44,679 nucleotides of DNA. It comes from Escherichia phage vB_EcoS_UALMA_PCEc3. Positions 1 to 44,254 of this stretch are shown one piece after another. The stretch is taken from the sequence record PQ314493; one strand, given 5' to 3'. The notes under the pieces are model-generated. The model worked only from the letters and a program-made list of their open reading frames with translations. It did no database searches and was not told the origin of the DNA. How positions within the stretch are numbered: position 1 is the first letter of the stretch; every line of letters begins with the position of its first letter. Made by a program: the position numbers and the translations under genes.

Positions 1-261
1 ATGAGCAAGTACGACCGCGAGATTATTGGTATTGATGGCACAGTAACAACAGTAGATGTTTATCGCGTTCTTGATGCGTTCAGCGTATCTTACCCAGCCA
101 CTCAGCATGCGGTAAAGAAGATGCTTTGTATGGGGTTGCGTGGACACAAGGATTACATAACCGACCTTAACGACTCAATCGAGTCATTACAGAAAGCCAA
201 GGAGCTTTACGGGCAAAAGATGATTCATCAATCAGATAAATCAAATCTGCGTGGTAAATAG
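1..261 (+). CDS. hypothetical early protein (86 aa)
   Basis: ORF from track; TAG stop (259-261) lies inside box copy 1. Confidence 0.45.
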   Translation: MSKYDREIIGIDGTVTTVDVYRVLDAFSVSYPATQHAVKKMLCMGLRGHKDYITDLNDSIESLQKAKELYGQKMIHQSDKSNLRGK

Positions 262-276
262 CACGAATTGCTAAAC
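256..276 (+). promoter_or_regulatory. palindromic box copy (aaaTAGCACGAATTGCTAAAc); -10 TATAGT at 296-301
   Basis: TAGCA-N5-TGCTA inverted repeat; 22-nt spacer to -10. Confidence 0.6.
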
Positions 277-330
277 CATCTCCGCAGGGTTTTGTTATAG
301 TTAGTTCACACCAAACGAGAGGAAAAAAAG

Positions 331-561
331 ATGATTACAATTAACCTGTCAGAGAAAGATGCGTCAACACTCAAGCAGCTTCTTTCAGGAAATCCGGTGC
401 ACACTAATGTTTATAACTTTGGTGAAGTAGAAAGGGAGGTTATCGCACAAATAAACAACCAGCAATTCGACGTAAGTGACTTCGAAAGTTCTAGACAATA
501 CGAGGCGATGAGCGTCAATGCTGCATACCTGACCAACTGGGATAAGGCGACTAATAAATGA
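331..561 (+). CDS. hypothetical protein (76 aa)
   Basis: ORF preceded by box/-10/leader cassette and RBS gagagg; stop overlaps next start (ATGA). Confidence 0.5.
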   Translation: MITINLSEKDASTLKQLLSGNPVHTNVYNFGEVEREVIAQINNQQFDVSDFESSRQYEAMSVNAAYLTNWDKATNK

Positions 562-884
562 TTTACATCCACACATATGGCGTAGGCAAGTTCGGAAAAG
601 AGATTCATCGCACTGTTCACGATACGAAGGAATCAGCCGAAGCAGCACAAAAAGTTCTAGGCGGTGAGTTCAAGGCTTACCGCGAATCCGATGACTCAGT
701 TGATTGCTGGCGTGTAGAGCACATGCGAAACGTGCTTGAAAGTGAAGTATCCGAGCTTATAGACAACATGACATGTCACGGCCCAGGCGGTCCATGGGAG
801 GAGCCAGGATCACCGGAATGGGATTGCGAAAAAGTTGAAACTATGAACAAGATTAGCGATATAATTGATGGTGTTTATCAGTGA
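558..884 (+). CDS. hypothetical protein (108 aa)
   Basis: ORF translationally coupled to upstream gene (ATGA overlap at 558-561). Confidence 0.5.
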   Translation: MIYIHTYGVGKFGKEIHRTVHDTKESAEAAQKVLGGEFKAYRESDDSVDCWRVEHMRNVLESEVSELIDNMTCHGPGGPWEEPGSPEWDCEKVETMNKISDIIDGVYQ

Positions 885-975
885 TTTTTTGATAAAATGA
901 TGCATCCTTAACGCCTCTTGGCAGCAGAAGGTGCTCGGTGGCACAATCAAGGTTTGCGAGATAATTAAAGAATAC

Positions 976-996
976 AAATAGCACTAATTGCTAAAC
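976..996 (+). promoter_or_regulatory. palindromic box copy; -10 TATAGT ~1016-1021
   Basis: aaatagcactaattgctaaac. Confidence 0.55.
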
Positions 997-1051
997 CATC
1001 ATTGGGGTAATTTGTTATAGTTACCACACCCAAACTAACGAGGTTATAAGA

Positions 1052-1156
1052 ATGAGTGAATTAATTAAAACTATCGCGGACTATCCATTTGCTTCGCTTT
1101 TTCTTGCTCTTGCAATATATGAAATTGTAAAGATTATTGTAAAATGTATTAAATAG
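1052..1156 (+). CDS. small hydrophobic peptide (34 aa, MSELIKTIADYPFASLFLALAIYEIVKIIVKCIK)
   Basis: ATG after RBS gagg; downstream of box copy 2 cassette; TAG stop inside box copy 3; below track size cutoff. Confidence 0.3.
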   Translation: MSELIKTIADYPFASLFLALAIYEIVKIIVKCIK

Positions 1157-1171
1157 CACGAATTTCTAAAA
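1151..1171 (+). promoter_or_regulatory. palindromic box copy; -10 TATAGT ~1191-1196
   Basis: aaatagcacgaatttctaaaa. Confidence 0.55.
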
Positions 1172-1226
1172 CATTATCGGGGTATCTTGCTATAGTTACC
1201 CCATCAAAACGAAACAGGAAGCAGAA

Positions 1227-1406
1227 ATGAAATTTCAACAAGGCGAGCCAAAGCTACAAGCCAACCACTTCGACGGCTACGCAACATTCATCATTGCTCA
1301 GGCTTTCGGAATGCGTGAAGACCCACAGGTTCACACCATTCACATGACTGAAGAGCAGGCCCGAGAGTTGGCATACGAAATTCTAGAGCAATTGAATAAG
1401 ATTTAA
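1227..1406 (+). CDS. small protein (59 aa)
   Basis: ATG after RBS aggaag following box copy 3 cassette. Confidence 0.35.
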   Translation: MKFQQGEPKLQANHFDGYATFIIAQAFGMREDPQVHTIHMTEEQARELAYEILEQLNKI

Positions 1407-1457
1407 CGCGCACAAAACGCATTCTTACGAACAATAATTTAAGTAAGGTGATTAATC

Positions 1458-1583
1458 ATGGAAGTGCAAGAGAGCGCCGTAGAGTGGTGCAAGAGAATGC
1501 AGGACGAAGCTAAGACGGGTGAAGAGGCGATGGCTTACTACGAGATGGCGCAAATGTGGATGGAGCGGGAGAAGAAAGAATGA
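1458..1583 (+). CDS. small protein (41 aa)
   Basis: ATG after RBS aaggtg; stop overlaps next start. Confidence 0.3.
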   Translation: MEVQESAVEWCKRMQDEAKTGEEAMAYYEMAQMWMEREKKE

Positions 1584-1723
1584 GTTTCACTGAATACGTG
1601 ATCGCATGCGAGCGACTGGTCTTTGATATGAAAACCTTCCACTGGTTCATCATTAAGGATTTAATCAAGCCTTATAAGCAGGGCGTTACGCCGGGGCGGT
1701 TTGTTAAGTCATTTTATAAATAG
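1580..1723 (+). CDS. small protein (47 aa)
   Basis: ATGA overlap with upstream ORF; TAG stop inside box copy 4. Confidence 0.3.
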   Translation: MSFTEYVIACERLVFDMKTFHWFIIKDLIKPYKQGVTPGRFVKSFYK

Positions 1724-1738
1724 CACGAATTGCTCAAC
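1718..1738 (+). promoter_or_regulatory. palindromic box copy; -10 TATAAT ~1758-1763
   Basis: aaatagcacgaattgctcaac. Confidence 0.55.
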
Positions 1739-1793
1739 GCAGTCGACACGGATGGCATATAATCACCTTACCAACACAACGAGAGATTGAGAC

Positions 1794-1934
1794 ATGAAGA
1801 ACACATATAAATTTTATTATGAAGAAGAGTTTGTGGATGATTTAATTTACTTCAATGAGAAATATGGCGACGAGTTCGTCTGCAATGGGGATGAAATGGA
1901 AGTGACTGCAAGCTTCAGCAGGGGGTTGAATTAA
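1794..1934 (+). CDS. small protein (46 aa)
   Basis: ATG after box copy 4 cassette and RBS gagag; stop overlaps start of next ORF. Confidence 0.3.
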   Translation: MKNTYKFYYEEEFVDDLIYFNEKYGDEFVCNGDEMEVTASFSRGLN

Positions 1935-2173
1935 TGTTCGGATTATCAGAAGCGCACTTTAACGCAGTTAAACGTCAGGCTGCAAAGTTGAACGAAGAGT
2001 ACAGCAAGTTATCGCCAAAGCAGCGCAATGATGATAAGCAGGTTGCAGCATTGATTTCGAAGATGTGGGAGCCAGTTTTTACAATCATTAGTCGGGACCG
2101 TTTTGTTTGGACTAGCGGATATCTTAAGGGACGTGTTGGTCATGACGAGAATGGGAATAGCCTTTATGAGTAA
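1934..2173 (+). CDS. hypothetical protein (79 aa)
   Basis: ORF from track, coupled to upstream small ORF. Confidence 0.45.
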   Translation: MFGLSEAHFNAVKRQAAKLNEEYSKLSPKQRNDDKQVAALISKMWEPVFTIISRDRFVWTSGYLKGRVGHDENGNSLYE

Positions 2174-2273
2174 GTTCATCGATTGCGTTATTTACACGCT
2201 ATGCGTAGCGCTGGCTTCGGCTTCGGTTATGTTAATCATTGCGGCGATTATGATGATGTTGGGGTATGTATGA
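2166..2273 (+). CDS. small membrane peptide (35 aa, hydrophobic core CVALASASVMLIIAAIMMMLG)
   Basis: short ORF overlapping stop of 1934..2173; single hydrophobic segment. Confidence 0.3.
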   Translation: MSKFIDCVIYTLCVALASASVMLIIAAIMMMLGYV

Positions 2274-2334
2274 GTGAGTTAACAATCTGGTTTATCGCGG
2301 GGTTGATTACTTGGGCTTATTTTATGGTGGTTGC

Positions 2335-2643
2335 ATGAGAACATTGAGACAGATTTTGCACTGTTGCAAGAAGCATCATTATGTTTACTTTCGTGATATT
2401 AAATGGTTCGAGGAGGCTCATTGCAAGTATGGTTTTAAAACAAAGTTAAAATGTACAAAATGTATGCACGTTGCTAACAGCAAGATTGACATGATGATTT
2501 GCCGCAGCACACTTTACGAAATCGCATATTGGAAACTCGAGTCACTGAAATCAGAGAGGCGGGAACCAAAGGATCTGTTCGGATACCAGCCTAAAGAATA
2601 TCCGCACATTTGGGTGATTGGAAAACCACCAGTTAAACCGTAA
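2335..2643 (+). CDS. Cys/His-rich small protein (possible zinc-binding)
   Basis: track ORF 2311..2643; likely ATG at 2335 (MRTLRQILHCCKKHH...); multiple Cys/His. Confidence 0.4.
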   Translation: MRTLRQILHCCKKHHYVYFRDIKWFEEAHCKYGFKTKLKCTKCMHVANSKIDMMICRSTLYEIAYWKLESLKSERREPKDLFGYQPKEYPHIWVIGKPPVKP

Positions 2644-2657
2644 TTGTTAAAAAGAGC

Positions 2658-2686
2658 TTGCATCACTGACTGGAATTATCTAATAT
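2658..2686 (+). promoter_or_regulatory. sigma70-like promoter for tRNA locus (TTGCAT-17 nt-TAATAT)
   Basis: -35 TTGCAT 2658-2663, 17-nt spacer, -10 TAATAT 2681-2686. Confidence 0.5.
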
Positions 2687-2852
2687 TAACCAAGTAGACA
2701 AACGAGGCCACTAAGTGGCAACGGCGCACGGAGCGCAACTACTAAGTCCGTTGCTCATTAAGTAGCGTATGCGGCATTAAGACCTAGCGCAAATAGGCAG
2801 ATTAATCGGCTGTATCAGGCAGCCCCGGAGCCGTAACCGGGAATCATTAAAA

Positions 2853-2929
2853 GCTCTGCTAGCTCAACAGGACAGCAGCAACGACCTTCTAAGTCGTAGG
2901 TTACTGGTTCGAATCCAGTGCGGAGCGCC
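2853..2929 (+). tRNA. tRNA-Arg (anticodon TCT)
   Basis: 7-bp acceptor stem GCTCTGC/GCGGAGC, U8, D-loop with GG, anticodon stem acgac/gtcgt with loop cTTCTaa, T-arm actgg-TTCGAAT-ccagt, discriminator G and encoded CCA. Confidence 0.8.
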
Positions 2930-2936
2930 AAATTAA

Positions 2937-3038
2937 CGTCGCGTTGCTAATGTTGGCCAAAGGGTGGAGCTTATACCTCCATAAAGCAATCTCCAGATAA
3001 GAGATGTAACGCAGGTTCGATTCCTGCCGCGACGACCA
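2937..3038 (+). tRNA. atypical tRNA-like RNA (~99 nt + CCA; anticodon unresolved, candidates GAT or TAT)
   Basis: perfect 7-bp acceptor pairing cgtcgcg/cgcgacg, canonical T-arm gcagg-TTCGATT-cctgc, encoded CCA; ~25 extra nt relative to a standard tRNA. Confidence 0.35.
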
Positions 3039-3053
3039 ATAAAGGAGTTCATT

Positions 3054-3236
3054 ATGTGGGATGTGAAGTTGTCCATTCGCTTAATGGGCCGCTCGTGCAA
3101 GAATTGCACTCAAGATTATATCGCGTCAGTTGCCGCAATCAGCGCTGAGGATGCGGTAGCGAAAGTAAAGGATATGTCAGGCGCTGACCCTGACACCCAC
3201 AAATTCCTGGTAGCTTACGTTCGTGAGCAAAAGTAA
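3054..3236 (+). CDS. hypothetical protein (60 aa)
   Basis: ORF immediately after tRNA locus with RBS aaaggag. Confidence 0.45.
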   Translation: MWDVKLSIRLMGRSCKNCTQDYIASVAAISAEDAVAKVKDMSGADPDTHKFLVAYVREQK

Positions 3237-3280
3237 AAAGTGTTATACCCTCGTTAAGTTTCGTTTCTCTCGTTGTTTTT

Positions 3281-3305
3281 AGCCCTCGCTTGAGGGCTTT
3301 TTTTC
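3281..3305 (+). terminator. rho-independent terminator
   Basis: hairpin agccctcgcttgagggct followed by T-run. Confidence 0.6.
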
Positions 3306-3315
3306 GTCTGCAATA

Positions 3316-3324
3316 TGGTATAAT
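3316..3324 (+). promoter_or_regulatory. extended -10 promoter (TGgTATAAT) upstream of terminase genes
   Basis: TG at 3316-3317, TATAAT 3319-3324, RBS aaggagg then ATG 3348. Confidence 0.45.
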
Positions 3325-3347
3325 CTGACCTCAACAAAGGAGGATTT

Positions 3348-3854
3348 ATGAGCAAAGCAGCATTAAAGATGGGCGAGGGAAATTTCAAGGCGCTCTACAA
3401 CAAGAAGTATGGCGATATTGCTATGGTGGCAATCAACCGCAAGTACACACCTGAGGAAGTTTTCGATTTCGCAGTGAGATACTTCTCCTGGGCTGAGAGT
3501 GAGGCAATAAAAGCTATTGAGACGGCGGCATATCATGGCGTGGTTAGCGAGAACTTAGTGTACAAGCCGAGAGTGTTCACCCTAACGGGTTTGGCGCTCT
3601 TCATGGGTGTTAACATCAATAGATTCGCTCGCTGGCGTACTGAGGCTGGATACTCTGATGTGATGGAATTTATTGATAACGTAATCTACGAGCAAAAATA
3701 TCAACTTGGCGTTGCAGGTATCATCAACTCTACTATCGTTGGTAAAGAGCTTGGCATTGATAAGCCGCAGGAGATTAAGATTAGCAACAACTCTACAGCT
3801 AACGACGTTGATAGTATGAAGGAAGCGCTGGAGTCAGTGATTAGTAAGCTATAA
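3348..3854 (+). CDS. putative terminase small subunit
   Basis: 168-aa ORF immediately upstream of large terminase; position/size only. Confidence 0.45.
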   Translation: MSKAALKMGEGNFKALYNKKYGDIAMVAINRKYTPEEVFDFAVRYFSWAESEAIKAIETAAYHGVVSENLVYKPRVFTLTGLALFMGVNINRFARWRTEAGYSDVMEFIDNVIYEQKYQLGVAGIINSTIVGKELGIDKPQEIKISNNSTANDVDSMKEALESVISKL

Positions 3855-3963
3855 CAATAAGAGGGTATAACATGATTATTTGCACATTTCTTGGTTGGTG
3901 GATGATAACCAGGAATCTTAACGCAGGACTGCTATATATAGCTATTAATCTGGGGGTTTCTCA

Positions 3964-5529
3964 ATGTCTTTAGTATGGGAAGAAATGACCATTCAGGAAA
4001 AGATGGCTGTCAAGGCGATATCAGAACACAGCTTCGAGGGTTTCCTTCGCTGCTGGTTCCAGATCACGCAAGGCGAGCGATACATCCCCAACTGGCATCA
4101 CAAGTACTTGTGCAGAATTATCGACGAGATTATCGCAGGGGAGCGCAAAGACACCATCATTAACATAGCGCCAGGTAGCGGGAAGACGGAAATCACATCA
4201 ATCCACTTCCCCGTCTACTCGATGCTAAAGCTAAAGAAGGTTCGCAACCTTAATATCTCGTTTTCCGACTCAAACGTGAAACGCAATTCAAAGCGAGTCC
4301 GGGACCTGATATCGTCAAAGGAGTTCCAGGAGCTATGGCCTTGCAAGTTCGGAACAAATAAGGATGACGAAATTCAGATCGTCGACGACGGCGGAAAGGT
4401 TAGATTCGAGTCCATATCAGCATCAAAAGGAGGTAGAATTACCGGTACGCGTGGTGGATACATCACCGACACATACAGTGGGGCGGTAATGCTGGATGAC
4501 TTCGATAAGCCCGACGAGATGTTTTCATCTGTATACAGAGCTAAGAGTCACACGTTACTTGGGAACACAATTCGCTCACGTCGCGCAAGTTCGGTAAAAG
4601 GGAAGGCAACTCCAATTATCCAGATTCAACAGCGACTTCACGTCAATGACTCAACATGGTTCATGCTTAGCGGCGGTATGGGGATTGATTTTGATTTGGT
4701 GAAAATACCCGCACTGGTTACTGAGGATTACGTTGACACACTACCTGACTGGATTAAGCAGCAATTCATTGATGATGTGTTATCAAGCGAATACGTTGAG
4801 CGTGACGGAGTGAAGTATTACAGCTACTTTCCTGGGAAGGAGTCTGTACATGACTTAATCGCCATGTGGGATGCTGACCAATACACGTTCCTTAGTCAGT
4901 ACCAGCAGGAACCTGTAGCTCTGGGCGGTAATCTTATTAATGTGGATTGGTTCCAGCGCCTTAGTGATACATTTAGGCCCCCAGCTAAGTACGATTATAG
5001 ATTCATAACTTGCGATACTGCGATGACCACTAAAAGTTACAGCGACTTCTCAGTTCTGCAGCTATGGGGCTATAAGGATGCTAAGATTTACCTTATAGAC
5101 CAGCGCAGAGGTAAATGGGAGGCACCAGAGTTGGAAGCTGAACTACTGGACTTCGAGAGGAAATCAAGGGCAACCAGTCAGTCAGATGGCATCCTCCGTA
5201 AAATCATCATCGAGAAAAAGGCATCTGGTATCGGCCTAATTCAATCGGCAGGTAGAGTGATGCGAACACCGATAGAGCCATACGTTCCGGATAACGACAA
5301 GCTTACTCGCGTAATGAGCTCATTGCCTCAGATTAAGGCTGGCAATGTAGTTCTTCCAGAGTCATCGCCGTGGCTAAACGGATTGCTCACTGAGGTTGCG
5401 GCTTTTACGGCAGATGACTCGCATAAGCACGACGACCAAATTGACTGTCTAACAATGGCGGTAAACCTTGTACTTAACATCGCTGATGATCCTAAGGCGA
5501 GACTGATGCGCATAGCGGGAATGAAATAG
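3964..5529 (+). CDS. terminase large subunit
   Basis: 521 aa; P-loop-like NIAPGSGKTEIT near N-terminus; position before portal; TAG stop inside box copy 5. Confidence 0.8.
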   Translation: MSLVWEEMTIQEKMAVKAISEHSFEGFLRCWFQITQGERYIPNWHHKYLCRIIDEIIAGERKDTIINIAPGSGKTEITSIHFPVYSMLKLKKVRNLNISFSDSNVKRNSKRVRDLISSKEFQELWPCKFGTNKDDEIQIVDDGGKVRFESISASKGGRITGTRGGYITDTYSGAVMLDDFDKPDEMFSSVYRAKSHTLLGNTIRSRRASSVKGKATPIIQIQQRLHVNDSTWFMLSGGMGIDFDLVKIPALVTEDYVDTLPDWIKQQFIDDVLSSEYVERDGVKYYSYFPGKESVHDLIAMWDADQYTFLSQYQQEPVALGGNLINVDWFQRLSDTFRPPAKYDYRFITCDTAMTTKSYSDFSVLQLWGYKDAKIYLIDQRRGKWEAPELEAELLDFERKSRATSQSDGILRKIIIEKKASGIGLIQSAGRVMRTPIEPYVPDNDKLTRVMSSLPQIKAGNVVLPESSPWLNGLLTEVAAFTADDSHKHDDQIDCLTMAVNLVLNIADDPKARLMRIAGMK

Positions 5530-5952: not shown

Positions 5953-5977
5953 AGCCCCCTACATGGGGCTTTTTTTA
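5953..5977 (+). terminator. rho-independent terminator
   Basis: hairpin agccccctacatggggct + T7 run. Confidence 0.65.
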
Positions 5978-5989
5978 TTGGAGAAAAAC

Positions 5990-7258
5990 ATGGTCAAGAC
6001 AGACAGCTACGCCAATATCTTTCTAGGCGGTGGTGATGGTAGTGAGATTTACGGAAGCTTACATAATCAGGCGCCTACAGTTCTGGCTTCTCTTTATGCG
6101 GATAACGCGCTGGTGCGTAGAATTATCGACACAATCCCGGAGACGGCATTGGCGGCAGGGTTCCACATTGATGGTATTGATGATGAGCCAGCATTTTGGT
6201 CGCGCTGGGACTACTTAGAGCTAACAAAACACATCAATGAAGCCTGGTCGTGGGCTAGATTGTTCGGAGGCTCTGCAATTGTTGCTATCGTTAAGGATAA
6301 TAGAGCATTAACAAGTCCGGTCAGAGAAGGTGCAGAACTTGAAACTGTTCGCGTATACGATCGTACACAAGTAAAAGTGGAGACTAGAGAAGAGAATCCA
6401 CGTAACGCACGTTTTGGTAAGCCACTGACCTATCGCATTACCACTAACGAAAGCGATATGTTCTACGACGTGCACTACAGCCGCATTCACATTATTGATG
6501 GCGAGCGAGTTCCTAACGCAATGCGTCGGCAGAATGATGGCTGGGGTCGCAGCGTTCTCTCCAGTGACATTCTTTACTCAATCAAGGATTACACCAACTG
6601 CGAAAGGCTGGCGACTCAACTGCTCAAGCGTAAACAGCAAGCGGTCTGGAAAGTCAAGGACCTGGCATTGCTTTGTGATGATAGTGAAGGAGTTGGCGCG
6701 GCTCGTTTACGTCTCGCTCAAGTTGATAACAACAGCGGAGTTGGTCAGGCAATTGGCATTGATGCGGAATCGGAAGAATACAGCATTCTGAACTCTGATA
6801 TTGGTGGGATTGATGCGTTCCTGGATAAGAAGTTCGACAGAATCGTTGCTCTGAGCGGCATCCATGAAATAATCCTGAAGAACAAGAACGTCGGCGGCTT
6901 ATCATCAAGCCAGAATACAGCGCTTGAGACATTCCATAAGCTAGTCGATCGCAAGCGTAACGCTGAGCTACTGCCGATTCTAGGGTTCCTGATTCCGTTC
7001 ATTTCAGACGAGCAAGAATGGTCAGTTGAGTTTAATCCCTTAGCTCATGAGTCAGGCAAGGATAAAGCTGAGATTCTGGAGAAGAACGTAAGCAGCATTG
7101 CGACGCTAATTGCATCTGGCGCCATGGATAAGAACGAAGCACGTGATACACTACGCACTATCGCACCAGAGATTAAGATTGGTGATAATGATATTCAGGC
7201 CGAGGAATCGGAGTTAATTACAGAGACAGAGGTTGTTAATGAAGAAATTGCGATATGA
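5990..7258 (+). CDS. portal protein (putative)
   Basis: ~420 aa ORF after terminase; track start 5963 is an ATG inside the terminator hairpin, likely true start ATG 5990 after RBS ggagaaa. Confidence 0.6.
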   Translation: MVKTDSYANIFLGGGDGSEIYGSLHNQAPTVLASLYADNALVRRIIDTIPETALAAGFHIDGIDDEPAFWSRWDYLELTKHINEAWSWARLFGGSAIVAIVKDNRALTSPVREGAELETVRVYDRTQVKVETREENPRNARFGKPLTYRITTNESDMFYDVHYSRIHIIDGERVPNAMRRQNDGWGRSVLSSDILYSIKDYTNCERLATQLLKRKQQAVWKVKDLALLCDDSEGVGAARLRLAQVDNNSGVGQAIGIDAESEEYSILNSDIGGIDAFLDKKFDRIVALSGIHEIILKNKNVGGLSSSQNTALETFHKLVDRKRNAELLPILGFLIPFISDEQEWSVEFNPLAHESGKDKAEILEKNVSSIATLIASGAMDKNEARDTLRTIAPEIKIGDNDIQAEESELITETEVVNEEIAI

Positions 7259-25854: not shown

Positions 25855-25908
25855 ACAAAATTAAAAGGTGGGGTATGATTACCCCATCAACAACGAACGA
25901 GGTTAAAG

Positions 25909-29888: not shown

Positions 29889-29909
29889 AAGTAGCACTAA
29901 TTGCTAAAG
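29889..29909. promoter_or_regulatory. palindromic box copy between primase terminator and tail fiber start
   Basis: aagtagcactaattgctaaag; only ~25 nt from tail fiber ATG in minus sense. Confidence 0.45.
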
Positions 29910-38173: not shown

Positions 38174-38659
38174 ATGAAGCAGAAGCTGCTAATTAGCGCG
38201 GCTACGGCTGCGGCAATATACATCGCAGCACCGCTTATTGAGCTCGTAGAGGGTGTGGAAAACAAGCCTTACATGGACATTGCTGGAATCCCTACTGTTT
38301 GCTCTGGCGTTACTGGCCCTGACGTAATTTGGGGTAAGACTTACAGCAACAGGGAGTGCCGTAACCTGCTGGAGAAGCACATCCAGATTCATGCTAAGTA
38401 TGTTCAGGATGCGGTCACCTACCCAATTGCACCGCAGACAAGGGCGGCGTTAATCAGCTTTAGCTATAACGTTGGTGGTAATGCTATGAGGAAATCTACT
38501 GCCGTTAAGTTAATTAACCAGGGTAAGATTGAGCGGGGTTGCAAGGCTCTCGGGATGTGGACAAAGGCTACCATTAATGGCAAAAAGGTTGTAGTTAAGG
38601 GTTTGGTTAATCGCAGGAATGAGGAGATTAAGTTATGTTTAAGCGGATTGCAGCGTTAG
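38174..38659 (+). CDS. SAR endolysin (T4/lambda-type lysozyme fold)
   Basis: N-terminal signal-anchor-release-like segment; catalytic E-x8-D-x5-T spacing (VEGVENKPYMDIAGIPT). Confidence 0.8.
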   Translation: MKQKLLISAATAAAIYIAAPLIELVEGVENKPYMDIAGIPTVCSGVTGPDVIWGKTYSNRECRNLLEKHIQIHAKYVQDAVTYPIAPQTRAALISFSYNVGGNAMRKSTAVKLINQGKIERGCKALGMWTKATINGKKVVVKGLVNRRNEEIKLCLSGLQR

Positions 38660-39024
38660 TAATGTGCGCAGCTTTATCTGGGTGCTCAGCAACCTCTGCT
38701 CTGACAGGATTAATTGGCAGTAAGCCAGAGATTAGCGCTCAAGCTGGTGCAGAAAACAATAAGGTTGGTGTTGGTTTAACGAACAGGGTTGACTCAAGTA
38801 ACTCCAGCGATGCCACAGTTAAGGATTCCAGCGTGGGCTCACTGGATAGTTCTAGCGGGAAAAAGACTGCTGATAATTCGATTAAGGCCTCTACAATCAC
38901 TGCCGAAAAGATTGAGATTACCAATAACGACTCATCAGCGCTTCCGTGGATTGGAACAGGAGCGATGGGTTTGCTGGTTATGATTCTCCTTGCCTTAATC
39001 TTAAGACGTAAAAAAGCCTCCTAA
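38635..39024 (+). CDS. unimolecular spanin (T1 gp11-like)
   Basis: lipobox LSGC near N-terminus plus C-terminal transmembrane helix followed by RRKKAS. Confidence 0.65.
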   Translation: MFKRIAALVMCAALSGCSATSALTGLIGSKPEISAQAGAENNKVGVGLTNRVDSSNSSDATVKDSSVGSLDSSSGKKTADNSIKASTITAEKIEITNNDSSALPWIGTGAMGLLVMILLALILRRKKAS

Positions 39025-43459: not shown

Positions 43460-43983
43460 TGTTTGACTTTAACGAGGATAAACTGACAGAAGAGCAGGTA
43501 ATAGAGATAGCCAAGCAAGATGGAATGCCTCCGCTGCGAATTGCAATCAATGCTAACGGGTATCGACAGTCAACGGCGTTTTGGGGCTCGATTGATATCT
43601 CAGAGGTGTATAGTGGTGATGAGCTTGGTGTACTGATTAAAATCATCAGGAAGATAGGAGTTAACGGCAAAGTAGTTGTCGGCATCAGATCTCTATATGA
43701 AGGCGCTCGCAAGTTAAAGCCATTTGCTGGGCGCGATGGAATGATGCTAGTGATCAAGGACAAGCTAATTCCAGAGCTCGATAAGATGAATGTTACCTGT
43801 CTAATTGGAGATAAGGTTTACTTCAACCCCTCCTTGACGGATTTAAGCTGGCAACCAAACTTCAAAACTTGCGAAGGTGAGCATGTTAGTAGACTACCAT
43901 ACCACTTGCGGTACAGAGAGGAAGAGGTGGAGATGGCGATTGAGTTCCACCGGAAAGCTAAACCACTCCTGAACGGTGAATAG
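43459..43983 (+). CDS. short paralogue of the P-loop NTPase-like protein (lacks NTPase core)
   Basis: MFDFNEDKL...INANGYRQS N-terminus and VVGIRSLYE...TCLIGDKVY C-terminal block shared with 39463..41046. Confidence 0.55.
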   Translation: MFDFNEDKLTEEQVIEIAKQDGMPPLRIAINANGYRQSTAFWGSIDISEVYSGDELGVLIKIIRKIGVNGKVVVGIRSLYEGARKLKPFAGRDGMMLVIKDKLIPELDKMNVTCLIGDKVYFNPSLTDLSWQPNFKTCEGEHVSRLPYHLRYREEEVEMAIEFHRKAKPLLNGE

Positions 43984-43998
43984 CACGGATTGCTAAAC
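43978..43998 (+). promoter_or_regulatory. palindromic box copy; -10 TATAAT 44018-44023
   Basis: gaatagcacggattgctaaac; contains TAG stop of short paralogue. Confidence 0.6.
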
Positions 43999-44047
43999 AA
44001 TGGATCGGGTAGTCAGCTATAATTACCACATCGACAACAAAGAGGAA

Positions 44048-44254
44048 ATGAAGATGAAAACTATGATTATCGAAGATTTCTCAGGTGACATCACTGAGGT
44101 GTCTGCTTCAGTATATTACGACGGCATCGTGAGCATTGACATTGACACGGATAACTTAGGCGATGAAATTACTATGTCTCACTATACACCAGAGCAAGCG
44201 CGCAAACTGGCGGCGGCATTAATCATGGCGGCGGAAGAGTCAGAGAAGCAATGA
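44048..44254 (+). CDS. hypothetical protein
   Basis: track ORF 44000..44254; likely ATG 44048 after cassette leader and RBS agaggaa. Confidence 0.4.
   Translation: MKMKTMIIEDFSGDITEVSASVYYDGIVSIDIDTDNLGDEITMSHYTPEQARKLAAALIMAAEESEKQ

What the first reader, a model, noticed from the sequence alone, without database searches (positions are those of the whole stretch)
1052..2338. Dense early-region array of tiny ORFs, several below the ORF-track cutoff, each behind its own box cassette
Between 1 and 2.6 kb there are at least six ORFs of 22-59 aa (1052..1156, 1227..1406, 1458..1583, 1580..1723, 1794..1934, 2166..2273, 2270..2338) with RBSs, ATGA-type coupling or upstream box cassettes; two are single-TMD membrane peptides. 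Such early small proteins in T-odd and T1-like phages are often host-takeover or anti-defence factors, and most here are missing from the six-frame track.
Basis: partly seen in the sequence, partly recalled or inferred. Interest (0 to 1): 0.4.

Follow-up and report, generated by a model that had tools for sequence, protein, structure and literature searches.

The report
Conserved tiny genes, T1-like phage
The stretch holds real, conserved tiny genes of unknown function in a T1-like coliphage, arranged in short operons behind a repeated promoter box already described for this phage family. This is ordinary for the family, except that one 22-residue membrane peptide has been missed or mis-called in about a hundred related genomes.

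Summary
The window is the whole genome of 'Pseudomonas phage PsgS01F' (PP134917.1), a Braunvirinae/Drexlerviridae (T1-like) phage. This region is 99.6% identical to coliphage vB_EcoS_CEB_EC3a.

- **ORFs:** All seven listed ORFs exist at the stated coordinates. They tile the + strand with SD sites or 1-, 4- or 8-nt overlaps. Substitutions against relatives are mostly synonymous in the called frame (pN/pS 0.08-0.32; o2166 0.47) but not in the other two frames.
- **Annotation:** GenBank already lists most as hypothetical proteins, and four fall in PHROG families of unknown function.
- **Boxes:** The 'box cassette' is the published 21-nt direct repeat of TLS/T1/Rtp (ATAGCAC-N3-TTGnTAAAA). It occurs 12 times genome-wide, always 19 nt upstream of a site that is -10-like in 11 of the 12. 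It heads four mini-operons here, not every ORF, and is not specific to this region.
- **Mosaicism:** Breaks in homology to relatives fall at boxes and gene junctions, so whole genes are swapped as cassettes.
- **New detail:** The 22-aa peptide MSELTIWFIAGLITWAYFMVVA is conserved from its Met in 106 phage records and is un-annotated in 10 of the 12 relatives whose annotation I read (fused in EC3a, too short in IME542).
- **Function:** No function could be assigned. 'Early' and 'anti-defence' remain untested.

The parts
976..1051 (+). Box cassette 1: 21-nt direct repeat AAATAGCACTAATTGCTAAAC (976-996), 19-nt spacer, TATAGT, conserved leader, SD
   Evidence: Matches the TLS repeat consensus aaATAGCACnnnTTGnTAAAA (PMC11447400).
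1052..1156 (+). o1052: 34-aa predicted single-TMD peptide. Its stop codon TAG lies inside the next box.
   Evidence: ORF. KD19 1.99. Found only in PsgS01F, EC3a, G8 and phiEB49 gp67 (79% aa). pN/pS 0.19 against phiEB49. Un-annotated in EC3a and G8.
1151..1226 (+). Box cassette 2 (repeat 1151-1171, TATAGT 19 nt downstream)
   Evidence: Relatives have a single box where the window has boxes 976 and 1151 flanking o1052.
1227..1406 (+). o1227: 59-aa acidic protein, PHROG 7411
   Evidence: 107 phage records. 86 protein clusters, 84 of them at least 75% identical over 92% or more of the query. pN/pS 0.14. AF2 pLDDT 72, three strands plus a helix, no PDB neighbour.
1458..1583 (+). o1458: 41-aa acidic protein, PHROG 1312, own SD (AAGGTGA) after a 51-nt spacer
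   Evidence: 240 phage records including Salmonella phages. pN/pS 0.25.
1580..1723 (+). o1580: 47-aa basic protein, PHROG 22596. Its ATG overlaps the o1458 stop (ATGA). Its stop TAG lies inside box 3.
   Evidence: 69 phage records. pN/pS 0.08.
1718..1793 (+). Box cassette 3 (repeat 1718-1738, TATAAT 19 nt downstream)
1794..1934 (+). o1794: 46-aa acidic protein in a variable slot
   Evidence: 22 phage records. Absent in AugustePiccard and replaced by unrelated genes in Rtp, 2004IV and FP. pN/pS 0.32.
1934..2173 (+). o1934: 79-aa protein found across the family, PHROG 303 (the Rtp record calls rtp15 similar to T1 gp59). Its ATG overlaps the o1794 stop by 1 nt.
   Evidence: 826 phage records. AF2 pLDDT 89.6, helical, no PDB fold match. 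pN/pS 0.32.
2166..2273 (+). o2166: 35-aa single-TMD peptide with an 8-nt overlap on o1934, in a variable slot
   Evidence: KD19 2.57. By sequence found only in PsgS01F and EC3a. TMD peptides in the same position with the same overlaps occur in 2725-N35 (31 aa, 39% id) and IME542 (30 aa). Not annotated in GenBank.
2270..2338 (+). o2270: 22-aa single-TMD micropeptide MSELTIWFIAGLITWAYFMVVA. ATGA overlap with o2166 upstream and with o2335 downstream.
   Evidence: (106 phage records). pN/pS 0.31 against 0.80 and 3.70 in the off frames. GenBank calls a 45-aa ORF 2201..2338 instead.
2335..2643 (+). o2335: 102-aa basic, Cys-rich protein. Last gene of the coupled operon. Absent from EC3a.
   Evidence: 70% aa identity to AugustePiccard bas01_0076. 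pN/pS 0.27.
256..330 (+). Box cassette 0, which heads the preceding mini-operon o331-o558 (context)

Best explanation
The interval is part of the small-gene region that lies upstream of the tRNA and terminase genes in T1-like (Drexlerviridae) phages.

It is built from short operons. Each starts with the family's 21-nt direct-repeat box. A -10-like hexamer follows exactly 19 nt downstream, then a conserved leader and an SD site. The operon continues through genes whose stop and start codons overlap.

The units are: box 976 -> o1052; box 1151 -> o1227, o1458-o1580; box 1718 -> o1794-o1934-o2166-o2270-o2335.

All of these ORFs encode real small proteins kept by purifying selection. Three are single-pass membrane peptides.

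The region is a mosaic. Whole genes, or one box plus one gene, are gained, lost or replaced between relatives. The exchange points lie at the conserved boxes and at the conserved overlapping gene junctions, which probably serve as recombination homologies.

Shown: coding status, operon layout, conservation and the cassette boundaries.

Inferred:
- The box cassettes are host-RNA-polymerase promoters.
- The variable-slot genes (o1052, o1794, o2166, o2335) are dispensable host-interaction factors.
- The conserved genes (o1227, o1458, o1580, o1934 and its coupled 22-aa peptide) serve a function common to the phage lineage. That function is still unknown.
For: - **Identity and annotation:**
- **ORFs, SD sites, overlaps:**
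- **Conservation in 10 relatives:**
- **Frame-specific excess of synonymous change:**
- **PHROG membership of four ORFs:**
- **Distribution counts:**
- **Box:** 12 copies against 0 expected. The spacer to a TAnnnT hexamer is a fixed 19 nt in 11 of 12 copies, and the box starts 75-76 nt before the ATG at the four boxes here. It matches the published TLS repeat, which lies about 76 nt upstream of start codons in the direction of transcription (PMC11447400).
- **Cassette DNA:** conserved in 583 phage records.
- **Cassette boundaries:** 34 of 62 homology endpoints lie within 5 nt of a gene or box edge, against 8.7% expected.
- **Box-flanked insertion:** o1052 plus one box is a 175-bp unit between two boxes, where relatives have one box.
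Against: - No transcript, ribosome or peptide data exist for this phage or were found for its relatives.
- The box sits 5 bp upstream of a canonical -35 position. TTGCTA is 22 nt from the -10-like hexamer, so promoter function is not proven. The TLS authors also consider 'stoperator' or enhancer-site roles.
- One box (29889) points against local transcription.
- pN/pS was computed on alignments chosen by tblastn in the called frame, and the pairs are not independent.
- o2166 rests on only one weak sequence homologue plus positional analogues.
- No function could be tied to any ORF.
Confidence: 0.75

Rival explanations
1. The tiny ORFs are chance reading frames in a non-coding regulatory region full of repeated boxes. 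Their conservation reflects DNA or RNA elements, not proteins.
For: The ORFs are very short (22-59 aa). Four of them have no PHROG, Pfam or NCBIfam match. The adjacent non-coding stretch 2644-2852 really is conserved as structured RNA, so non-coding conservation does occur here.
Against: Substitutions are mostly synonymous only in the called frame. Start, stop and length are kept across subfamilies even at 52-70% nucleotide identity. Amino-acid changes in the TMD peptides keep them hydrophobic. SD sites or overlapping coupling are present at every ORF.
Confidence: 0.03
2. The GenBank parse is right: 2201..2338 is one 45-aa membrane protein, and 2166..2273 is not a gene.
For: Both PsgS01F and EC3a are annotated this way. 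An in-frame ATG exists at 2201.
Against: - Similarity to all relatives begins exactly at the Met of MSEL...
- The in-frame upstream extension differs in sequence and length in 13 genomes. e4/1c has a stop two codons upstream, and FP has no upstream start.
- No SD precedes 2201.
- The fused reading finds only EC3a's own protein among 5.8 billion clusters.
- 2166..2273 has positional TMD-peptide counterparts with the same 8-nt and 4-nt overlaps in 2725-N35 and IME542.
Confidence: 0.07
3. The array is an anti-defence or host-takeover island expressed first after infection. Each small protein would inhibit a host defence or a host process.
For: Slots for o1052, o1794, o2166 and o2335 vary between close relatives. 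By its record's annotation, Rtp carries an Stp-like peptide (rtp6) and a polynucleotide kinase in the same region. From my own knowledge, not checked here, T4 Stp and PNK act on the PrrC/EcoprrI system. The proteins are small and restricted to phages.
Against: There is no Stp homologue in this window and no match to any known family. o1934 occurs in 826 records, and o1227 and o1580 are 75-98% identical across relatives, which is unlike arms-race genes. The timing of expression is unknown, and the box is shared with operons elsewhere in the genome.
Confidence: 0.3
4. The membrane peptides (o1052, o2166, o2270) are lysis-timing or superinfection-exclusion factors acting at the inner membrane.
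For: All three are predicted single-pass TMD peptides. Up to two such peptides recur at the end of the o1934 operon in several lineages.
Against: They lie about 8 kb from the endolysin and spanin genes at 38174-39024. They lack the charged C-terminal tail typical of holins. o2270 is absent in SCS31 and truncated in IME542, so it is dispensable.
Confidence: 0.15

Closest known systems
21-nt direct repeats of phage TLS (also reported for T1, Rtp and Rogue1), consensus aaATAGCACnnnTTGnTAAAA (PMC11447400)
   Same: The core sequence is the same. The repeat lies in the direction of transcription, in intergenic positions, about 76 nt upstream of start codons, in many copies per genome (12 here, 21 in TLS).
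   Different: Two points are made here that the section of the paper I read does not mention. The repeat lies a fixed 19 nt from a site that reads TAnnnT in 11 of 12 copies. It also marks the boundaries of gene cassettes exchanged between relatives. Its function is unresolved both in the paper and here.
PeSL mobile regulatory cassettes of T4-type phages (PMC2839356, PMC4122927)
   Same: In both, repeated promoter-containing intergenic cassettes flank small variable genes. Insertions, deletions and replacements between close relatives are bounded by the cassettes.
   Different: By the title of PMC4122927, PeSLs are composite promoter-terminator motifs; I did not read the papers further. No terminator-like hairpin is part of the boxes here. 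The sequences are unrelated and the phage family differs. Many junctions here are overlapping stop/start codons rather than cassettes.
PHROG families 7411, 1312, 22596 and 303 (unknown function)
   Same: o1227, o1458, o1580 and o1934 match over their full length with E-values from 1e-14 to 1e-37.
   Different: These families carry no function. o1052, o1794, o2166, o2270 and o2335 match no PHROG.
T4 Stp / Rtp rtp6, a small anti-restriction peptide
   Same: It is a peptide of about 30 aa, encoded in the same small-gene region of the relative Rtp directly behind a box cassette.
   Different: No ORF in this window resembles it. Stp is soluble and basic, whereas the tiny peptides here are hydrophobic.

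Membership tests
T1/TLS-family 21-nt direct repeat | Sequence matches aaATAGCACnnnTTGnTAAAA | tested here: met
   12 matches with at most 3 mismatches to AAATAGCACGAATTGCTAAAC, against 0 expected. Consensus from PMC11447400.
T1/TLS-family 21-nt direct repeat | Oriented with transcription and about 76 nt upstream of a start codon | tested here: met
   Box start to ATG is 75-76 nt at 256, 976, 1151 and 1718. 11 of 12 copies point toward a downstream ORF. The copy at 29889 does not.
Sigma-70 promoter | -35 and -10 hexamers at 16-18 nt spacing | tested here: inconclusive
   A -10-like TATAGT or TATAAT is present. TTGCTA lies 22 nt upstream. Only a weak TAAAC(A) sits at 18 nt. The consensus scan did not call the four boxes in 1-4000.
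PeSL-type mobile regulatory cassette | Composite of promoter plus stem-loop terminator | tested here: not met
   No terminator-like site at any of the four boxes in 1-4000. Only a 5-bp palindrome TAGCA-N5-TGCTA lies inside the box.
PeSL-type mobile regulatory cassette | Cassettes bound the indels and replacements between close relatives | tested here: met
   o1052 plus one box is flanked by two boxes where relatives have one. Homology endpoints cluster at boxes and gene edges.
PHROG 7411 / 1312 / 22596 / 303 | Full-length HMM match | tested here: met
   E-values 1.1e-34, 4.1e-14, 1.9e-37 and 5.6e-28.
Stp-like anti-restriction peptide | Sequence similarity to Stp / Rtp rtp6 | tested here: not met
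   tblastn of rtp6 against the whole window gives no hit at E<=0.01.
Holin | TMD protein encoded next to endolysin and spanin genes, with a charged C-terminus | tested here: not met
   Endolysin and spanin lie at 38174-39024. The peptides end in hydrophobic residues.
Early-expressed host-takeover or anti-defence genes | Expression in the first minutes of infection, and a host target | not testable with these tools
   No expression data were found for this phage or for Drexlerviridae.

The most novel reading that the evidence does not exclude
The 22-aa peptide (2270..2338) is a previously unrecognised family of phage membrane micropeptides.

It is translated by termination-reinitiation from the end of the 79-aa family-wide gene (o1934 family), or from a second TMD peptide inserted between them. 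It works together with that protein at the inner membrane.

More broadly, the T1-family repeat box would double as a promoter element and as the recombination linker that moves single small genes between phages.
Probability: 0.3. Interest if true: 0.45.

Novelty: new member of a known kind. Interest (0 to 1): 0.28.

Why it matters
The KanT1 paper (PMC13164509) states that about half of T1's proteins, mostly small ORFs, have no known function. This analysis gives a clean, selection-tested gene list for one such region. It corrects one annotation: two overlapping-coupled TMD peptides replace a single 45-aa ORF. It identifies a 22-aa peptide conserved in about 100 genomes that is un-annotated in 10 of the 12 relatives checked. 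It also sorts the slots into conserved and swappable. That sorting is the practical starting point for deletion or anti-defence screens in tractable relatives such as EC3a or BASEL phage AugustePiccard. None of this changes what is known about the phage family.

Tried and rejected
**Family and structure searches that gave nothing**
- Pfam, NCBIfam and PHROGs give no named function for any ORF.
- PDB sequence search with o1934, o1227 and o1580 found nothing below E = 0.5.
- AlphaFold models of o1934 (pLDDT 89.6) and o1227 (72.0) followed by Foldseek found no PDB neighbour at E <= 0.001. BFVD returned only an uncharacterised T1-like homologue.

**Searches for the 22-aa peptide**
The 45-aa fused reading found only EC3a.

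**Searches that were negative in this window**
- Rfam on 1-3400 found only the two tRNAs.
- An Stp-like peptide as in Rtp is absent.

**Literature**
- Nothing was found on PsgS01F, on Drexlerviridae transcriptomes, or on tested functions of these ORFs.

**Ideas rejected**
- I considered that o1227's C-terminal half and o331's N-terminus form a ribbon-helix-helix that could bind the box. The o1227 model shows three strands and one helix, and o331 matches only DUF7180.
- I considered that the small peptide follows o1934 throughout the family. It does not in Webervirus, Tempevirinae, Tunavirinae or Nouzillyvirus.
Full report
**What the window is.** The window matches Pseudomonas phage PsgS01F (PP134917.1, 44,679 bp) at 100% identity over the stretch queried (900-2700), and record and window have the same length; relative to the record it is reverse-complemented and rotated. 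Window 1-2323 is 99.6% identical to Escherichia phage vB_EcoS_CEB_EC3a (Guelphvirus, Braunvirinae, Drexlerviridae). The finding lies in the run of small genes that precedes the tRNA gene(s), terS (3348..3854) and terL (3964..5529).

**Checking the observation.** All seven ORFs are at the stated coordinates. Together with 1934..2173 (79 aa) and 2335..2643 (102 aa) they tile the + strand. Coding sequence fills 88% of 1052..2643. The only gaps are three roughly 70-nt box cassettes and one 51-nt spacer.
- Every ORF has an SD-like site (GAGG, AGGAAG, AAGGTGA, GAGAG) or overlaps its predecessor.
- The overlaps are ATGA at 1580, 2270 and 2335, 1 nt at 1934, and 8 nt (ATGAGTAA) at 2166.
- Kyte-Doolittle 19-residue maxima of 1.99, 2.57 and 1.97 mark o1052, o2166 and o2270 as single-TMD peptides. 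That makes three, not two.

**Are they genes?** I fetched the same region from 17 related phages and ran tblastn locally on ten of them.

| ORF | Local result against relatives | Phage records (of 50,697) |
|---|---|---|
| o1052 | EC3a 100%, phiEB49 gp67 79% | 6 records, 4 phages |
| o1227 | all seven Braunvirinae, 85-100% aa | 107 |
| o1458 | all ten relatives, 50-100% aa | 240 |
| o1580 | six of the seven Braunvirinae (not SCS31), 85-98% aa | 69 |
| o1794 | three relatives at 62-100%, plus Sf12 at 36% | 22 |
| o1934 | all ten relatives, 48-99% aa | 826 |
| o2166 | EC3a 100%, 2725-N35 39% | 3 records, 2 phages |
| o2270 | nine of the ten relatives (not SCS31), 59-91% aa | 106 |

A Nei-Gojobori count on the ungapped alignments gave pN/pS of 0.19 (o1052), 0.14 (o1227), 0.25 (o1458), 0.08 (o1580), 0.32 (o1794), 0.32 (o1934), 0.47 (o2166), 0.31 (o2270) and 0.27 (o2335) in the called frame. 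The same alignments read in the other two frames gave about 0.8-4.3.

Two caveats apply. tblastn picks alignments in the called frame, and the pairs share ancestry. The off-frame control and the conserved starts, stops and lengths nevertheless make chance ORFs very unlikely. Four ORFs fall in PHROG families 7411, 1312, 22596 and 303, all of unknown function. The PsgS01F record already lists all but one of the finding's seven ORFs unchanged as hypothetical proteins; the exception, o2166, is not annotated, and o2270 appears only inside the 45-aa call.

**The one place where annotation and reader disagree.** GenBank calls a 45-aa ORF at 2201..2338 (44 aa in EC3a).
- Similarity to every relative starts exactly at the Met of MSELTIWFIAGLITWAYFMVVA.
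- In 13 genomes the in-frame upstream extension differs in sequence and length. e4/1c has a stop two codons upstream, and FP has no upstream start.
- Peptide length is 22 aa in seven genomes, 21 in four, 18 in FP and 14 in IME542.
- Codon changes are often synonymous, or swap one hydrophobic residue for another.
- The fused 45-aa reading retrieves only EC3a's own protein from 5.8 billion clusters.

In most relatives the peptide's ATG overlaps the stop of the o1934 homologue by 8 nt (..TATGAGTGA..). In the window, a second TMD peptide (o2166) is inserted with the same 8-nt overlap upstream and an ATGA overlap downstream.

TMD peptides in the same position with the same junctions occur in 2725-N35 (31 aa, 39% identical) and IME542 (30 aa). 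FP has a different 38-aa TMD ORF there.

The 22-aa ORF is not annotated in 10 of the 12 relatives that carry it and whose annotation I read: Rtp, 2725-N35, 2004IV, FP, AugustePiccard, phiEB49, Rogue1, Sf12, e4/1c and Sd1. In EC3a it is fused, and in IME542 it is truncated.

It is restricted to Braunvirinae and Rogunavirinae. It is absent after the o1934 homologue in Webervirus, Tempevirinae, Tunavirinae and Nouzillyvirus, absent in SCS31, and cut to 14 aa in IME542. It is therefore conserved but dispensable.

**The box cassettes.** The repeat AAATAGCACGAATTGCTAAAC occurs 12 times in the genome on both strands, against 0 expected. In every copy, a hexamer lies exactly 19 nt after the box. It reads TAnnnT in 11 of 12 copies: TATAGT five times, TATAAT twice. 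A conserved C(A/C)CATCGAAACGA leader and an SD site follow.

At the four boxes in 1-2 kb, the box starts 75-76 nt before the ATG. The stop codon of the upstream gene is often the TAG inside the box, as with o1, o1052, o1580 and terL.

This is the 21-nt direct repeat that the TLS re-annotation paper describes: aaATAGCACnnnTTGnTAAAA, at 21 sites, about 76 nt upstream of start codons, and also seen in T1, Rtp and Rogue1. That paper leaves its function open among stoperator, enhancer site and UP-like element (PMC11447400).

If the hexamer is the -10, the box covers about -52 to -32. Its palindrome TAGCA-N5-TGCTA is centred near -42, and TTGCTA lies 5 bp upstream of a canonical -35. The fixed spacing argues that box and hexamer work as one promoter unit, but this is inference.

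The box is not specific to this region. It also precedes the operon downstream of terL that runs into the 431-aa ORF 5963..7258 (box 5524) and other operons, so it cannot be used to call these genes 'early'. Only three boxes lie in the finding's interval, and they head operons rather than single ORFs.

**Mosaic structure.** BLASTN of window 1-3400 against nine relatives shows that homology starts and stops at boxes and gene junctions: about 253, 331, 561-577, 976, 1052, 1151, 1226, 1454-1482, 1715, 1786-1806, 1932-1934, 2171-2176, 2269, 2323 and 2643. Of 62 endpoints, 34 lie within 5 nt of a gene or box edge, against 8.7% expected.
- o1052 plus one box forms a 175-bp unit between two boxes, where AugustePiccard, FP, Rtp, 2725-N35, 2004IV and SCS31 have a single box.
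- In phiEB49 the o1052 homologue instead follows the o1458 homologue by an ATGA overlap.
- The o1794 slot is empty in AugustePiccard and holds unrelated genes in Rtp, 2004IV and FP.
- o2335 is present in AugustePiccard but not in EC3a.

This behaves like the PeSL cassettes of T4-type phages (PMC2839356, PMC4122927). The boxes, however, lack the terminator stem-loop implied by the 'promoter-terminator' name of PeSLs, so it is an analogy and not membership.

**Function.** Nothing could be assigned.
- Pfam and NCBIfam gave no significant hit.
- PDB sequence searches gave nothing below E = 0.5.
- The AlphaFold model of o1934 is confident (pLDDT 89.6, helical) but has no PDB neighbour (best E 2.6). 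In BFVD it finds only an uncharacterised T1-like protein.
- The o1227 model (pLDDT 72, three strands plus a helix) also has no neighbour.

Contextual support for an anti-defence role is limited. It rests on the swappable slots, and on Rtp, whose record annotates an Stp-like 30-aa peptide (rtp6) and a polynucleotide kinase in the same region. The window has no Stp homologue.

o1934 in particular is found in 826 phage records, which is not what arms-race genes usually look like. The TMD peptides are about 8 kb from the endolysin and spanin genes, so they are not obviously lysis genes.

**Verdict.** The arrangement of box-headed mini-operons of tiny genes is the known layout of T1-like genomes, and the box is already published. 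The interpretation as early anti-defence or takeover genes is plausible for the variable slots but untested.

The modest new points are these:
- The corrected two-peptide parse at 2166-2338.
- The recognition of a 22-aa membrane micropeptide conserved in about 100 genomes and largely un-annotated.
- The fixed 19-nt spacing from the box to the -10-like hexamer.
- The coincidence of recombination boundaries with boxes and overlapping gene junctions.

Noticed in passing
window 2644-2852: This non-coding stretch between o2335 and tRNA-Arg is more conserved than most of the variable ORFs next to it (89-94% identity over its first ~130 nt in six of seven Braunvirinae). It opens with TTGCAT-N17-TAATAT. 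It then folds into several hairpins with compensatory changes across 7 phages (44 pairs, 7 with both sides changed). Relatives carry 60-130 nt insertions inside it. There is no Rfam match. It is possibly a structured leader or small RNA transcribed with the tRNA(s).
   Followed up: partly
window 2937-3035: A second tRNA-like gene of 99 nt follows tRNA-Arg. Rfam tRNA scores it 39.4 bits and GenBank calls it tRNA-Ile, but ARAGORN does not call it. It is unusually long, which suggests an insertion or a long extra arm.
   Followed up: no
whole window: The record names Pseudomonas syringae pv. garcae as host. Yet the genome is a Guelphvirus-like coliphage. The small-gene region is 99.6% identical to E. 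coli phage EC3a and the structural module 92.7%. Nearly all related records name E. coli or Shigella as host (a few carry Campylobacter or Klebsiella labels). Either the host range is unusual or the host label is doubtful. The unequal identity also shows that the genome is mosaic.
   Followed up: partly
window 558-981: o558 (108 aa) has the N-terminus of the 48-aa rtp9 / T1 gp04-like protein, then about 70 unrelated residues. The displaced C-terminus of an rtp9-like gene (..QQKVLGGTIKVCEIIKEYK*) survives out of frame at 913-981 and ends at the TAG inside box 976. This looks like an insertion at a repeated KVLGG motif.
   Followed up: partly
window 29889-29909: One copy of the box points against the local genes (both neighbours are on the - strand). 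It is followed by a hairpin that reads as a terminator on the - strand. Because the box core is palindromic, it could still bind a factor in this orientation.
   Followed up: no
window 43978-44254: The annotated start of the 84-aa ORF 44000..44254 lies inside box cassette 43978. An in-frame ATG with a good SD site about 50 nt downstream, at the usual distance from the box, is the more likely start.
   Followed up: no
window 1016-1046, 1178-1204, 25862-25882: In a subset of cassettes an inverted repeat brackets or abuts the -10-like hexamer. It reads GGGGTA(A)...(T)TACCCC. It is well kept at this locus across relatives.
   Followed up: no
window 1-261: o1 (86 aa) matches only the C-terminal third of longer PHROG families, one of them labelled ATPase. 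AugustePiccard has a 204-aa P-loop NTPase nearby. EC3a labels the homologue 'terminase large subunit', which is almost certainly a mis-annotation.
   Followed up: no
window 2335-2643: o2335 is a basic (+11), Cys- and His-rich 102-aa protein. It is absent from EC3a but 70% identical to AugustePiccard bas01_0076. It has no family match, and the Cys/His pattern suggests metal binding.
   Followed up: no
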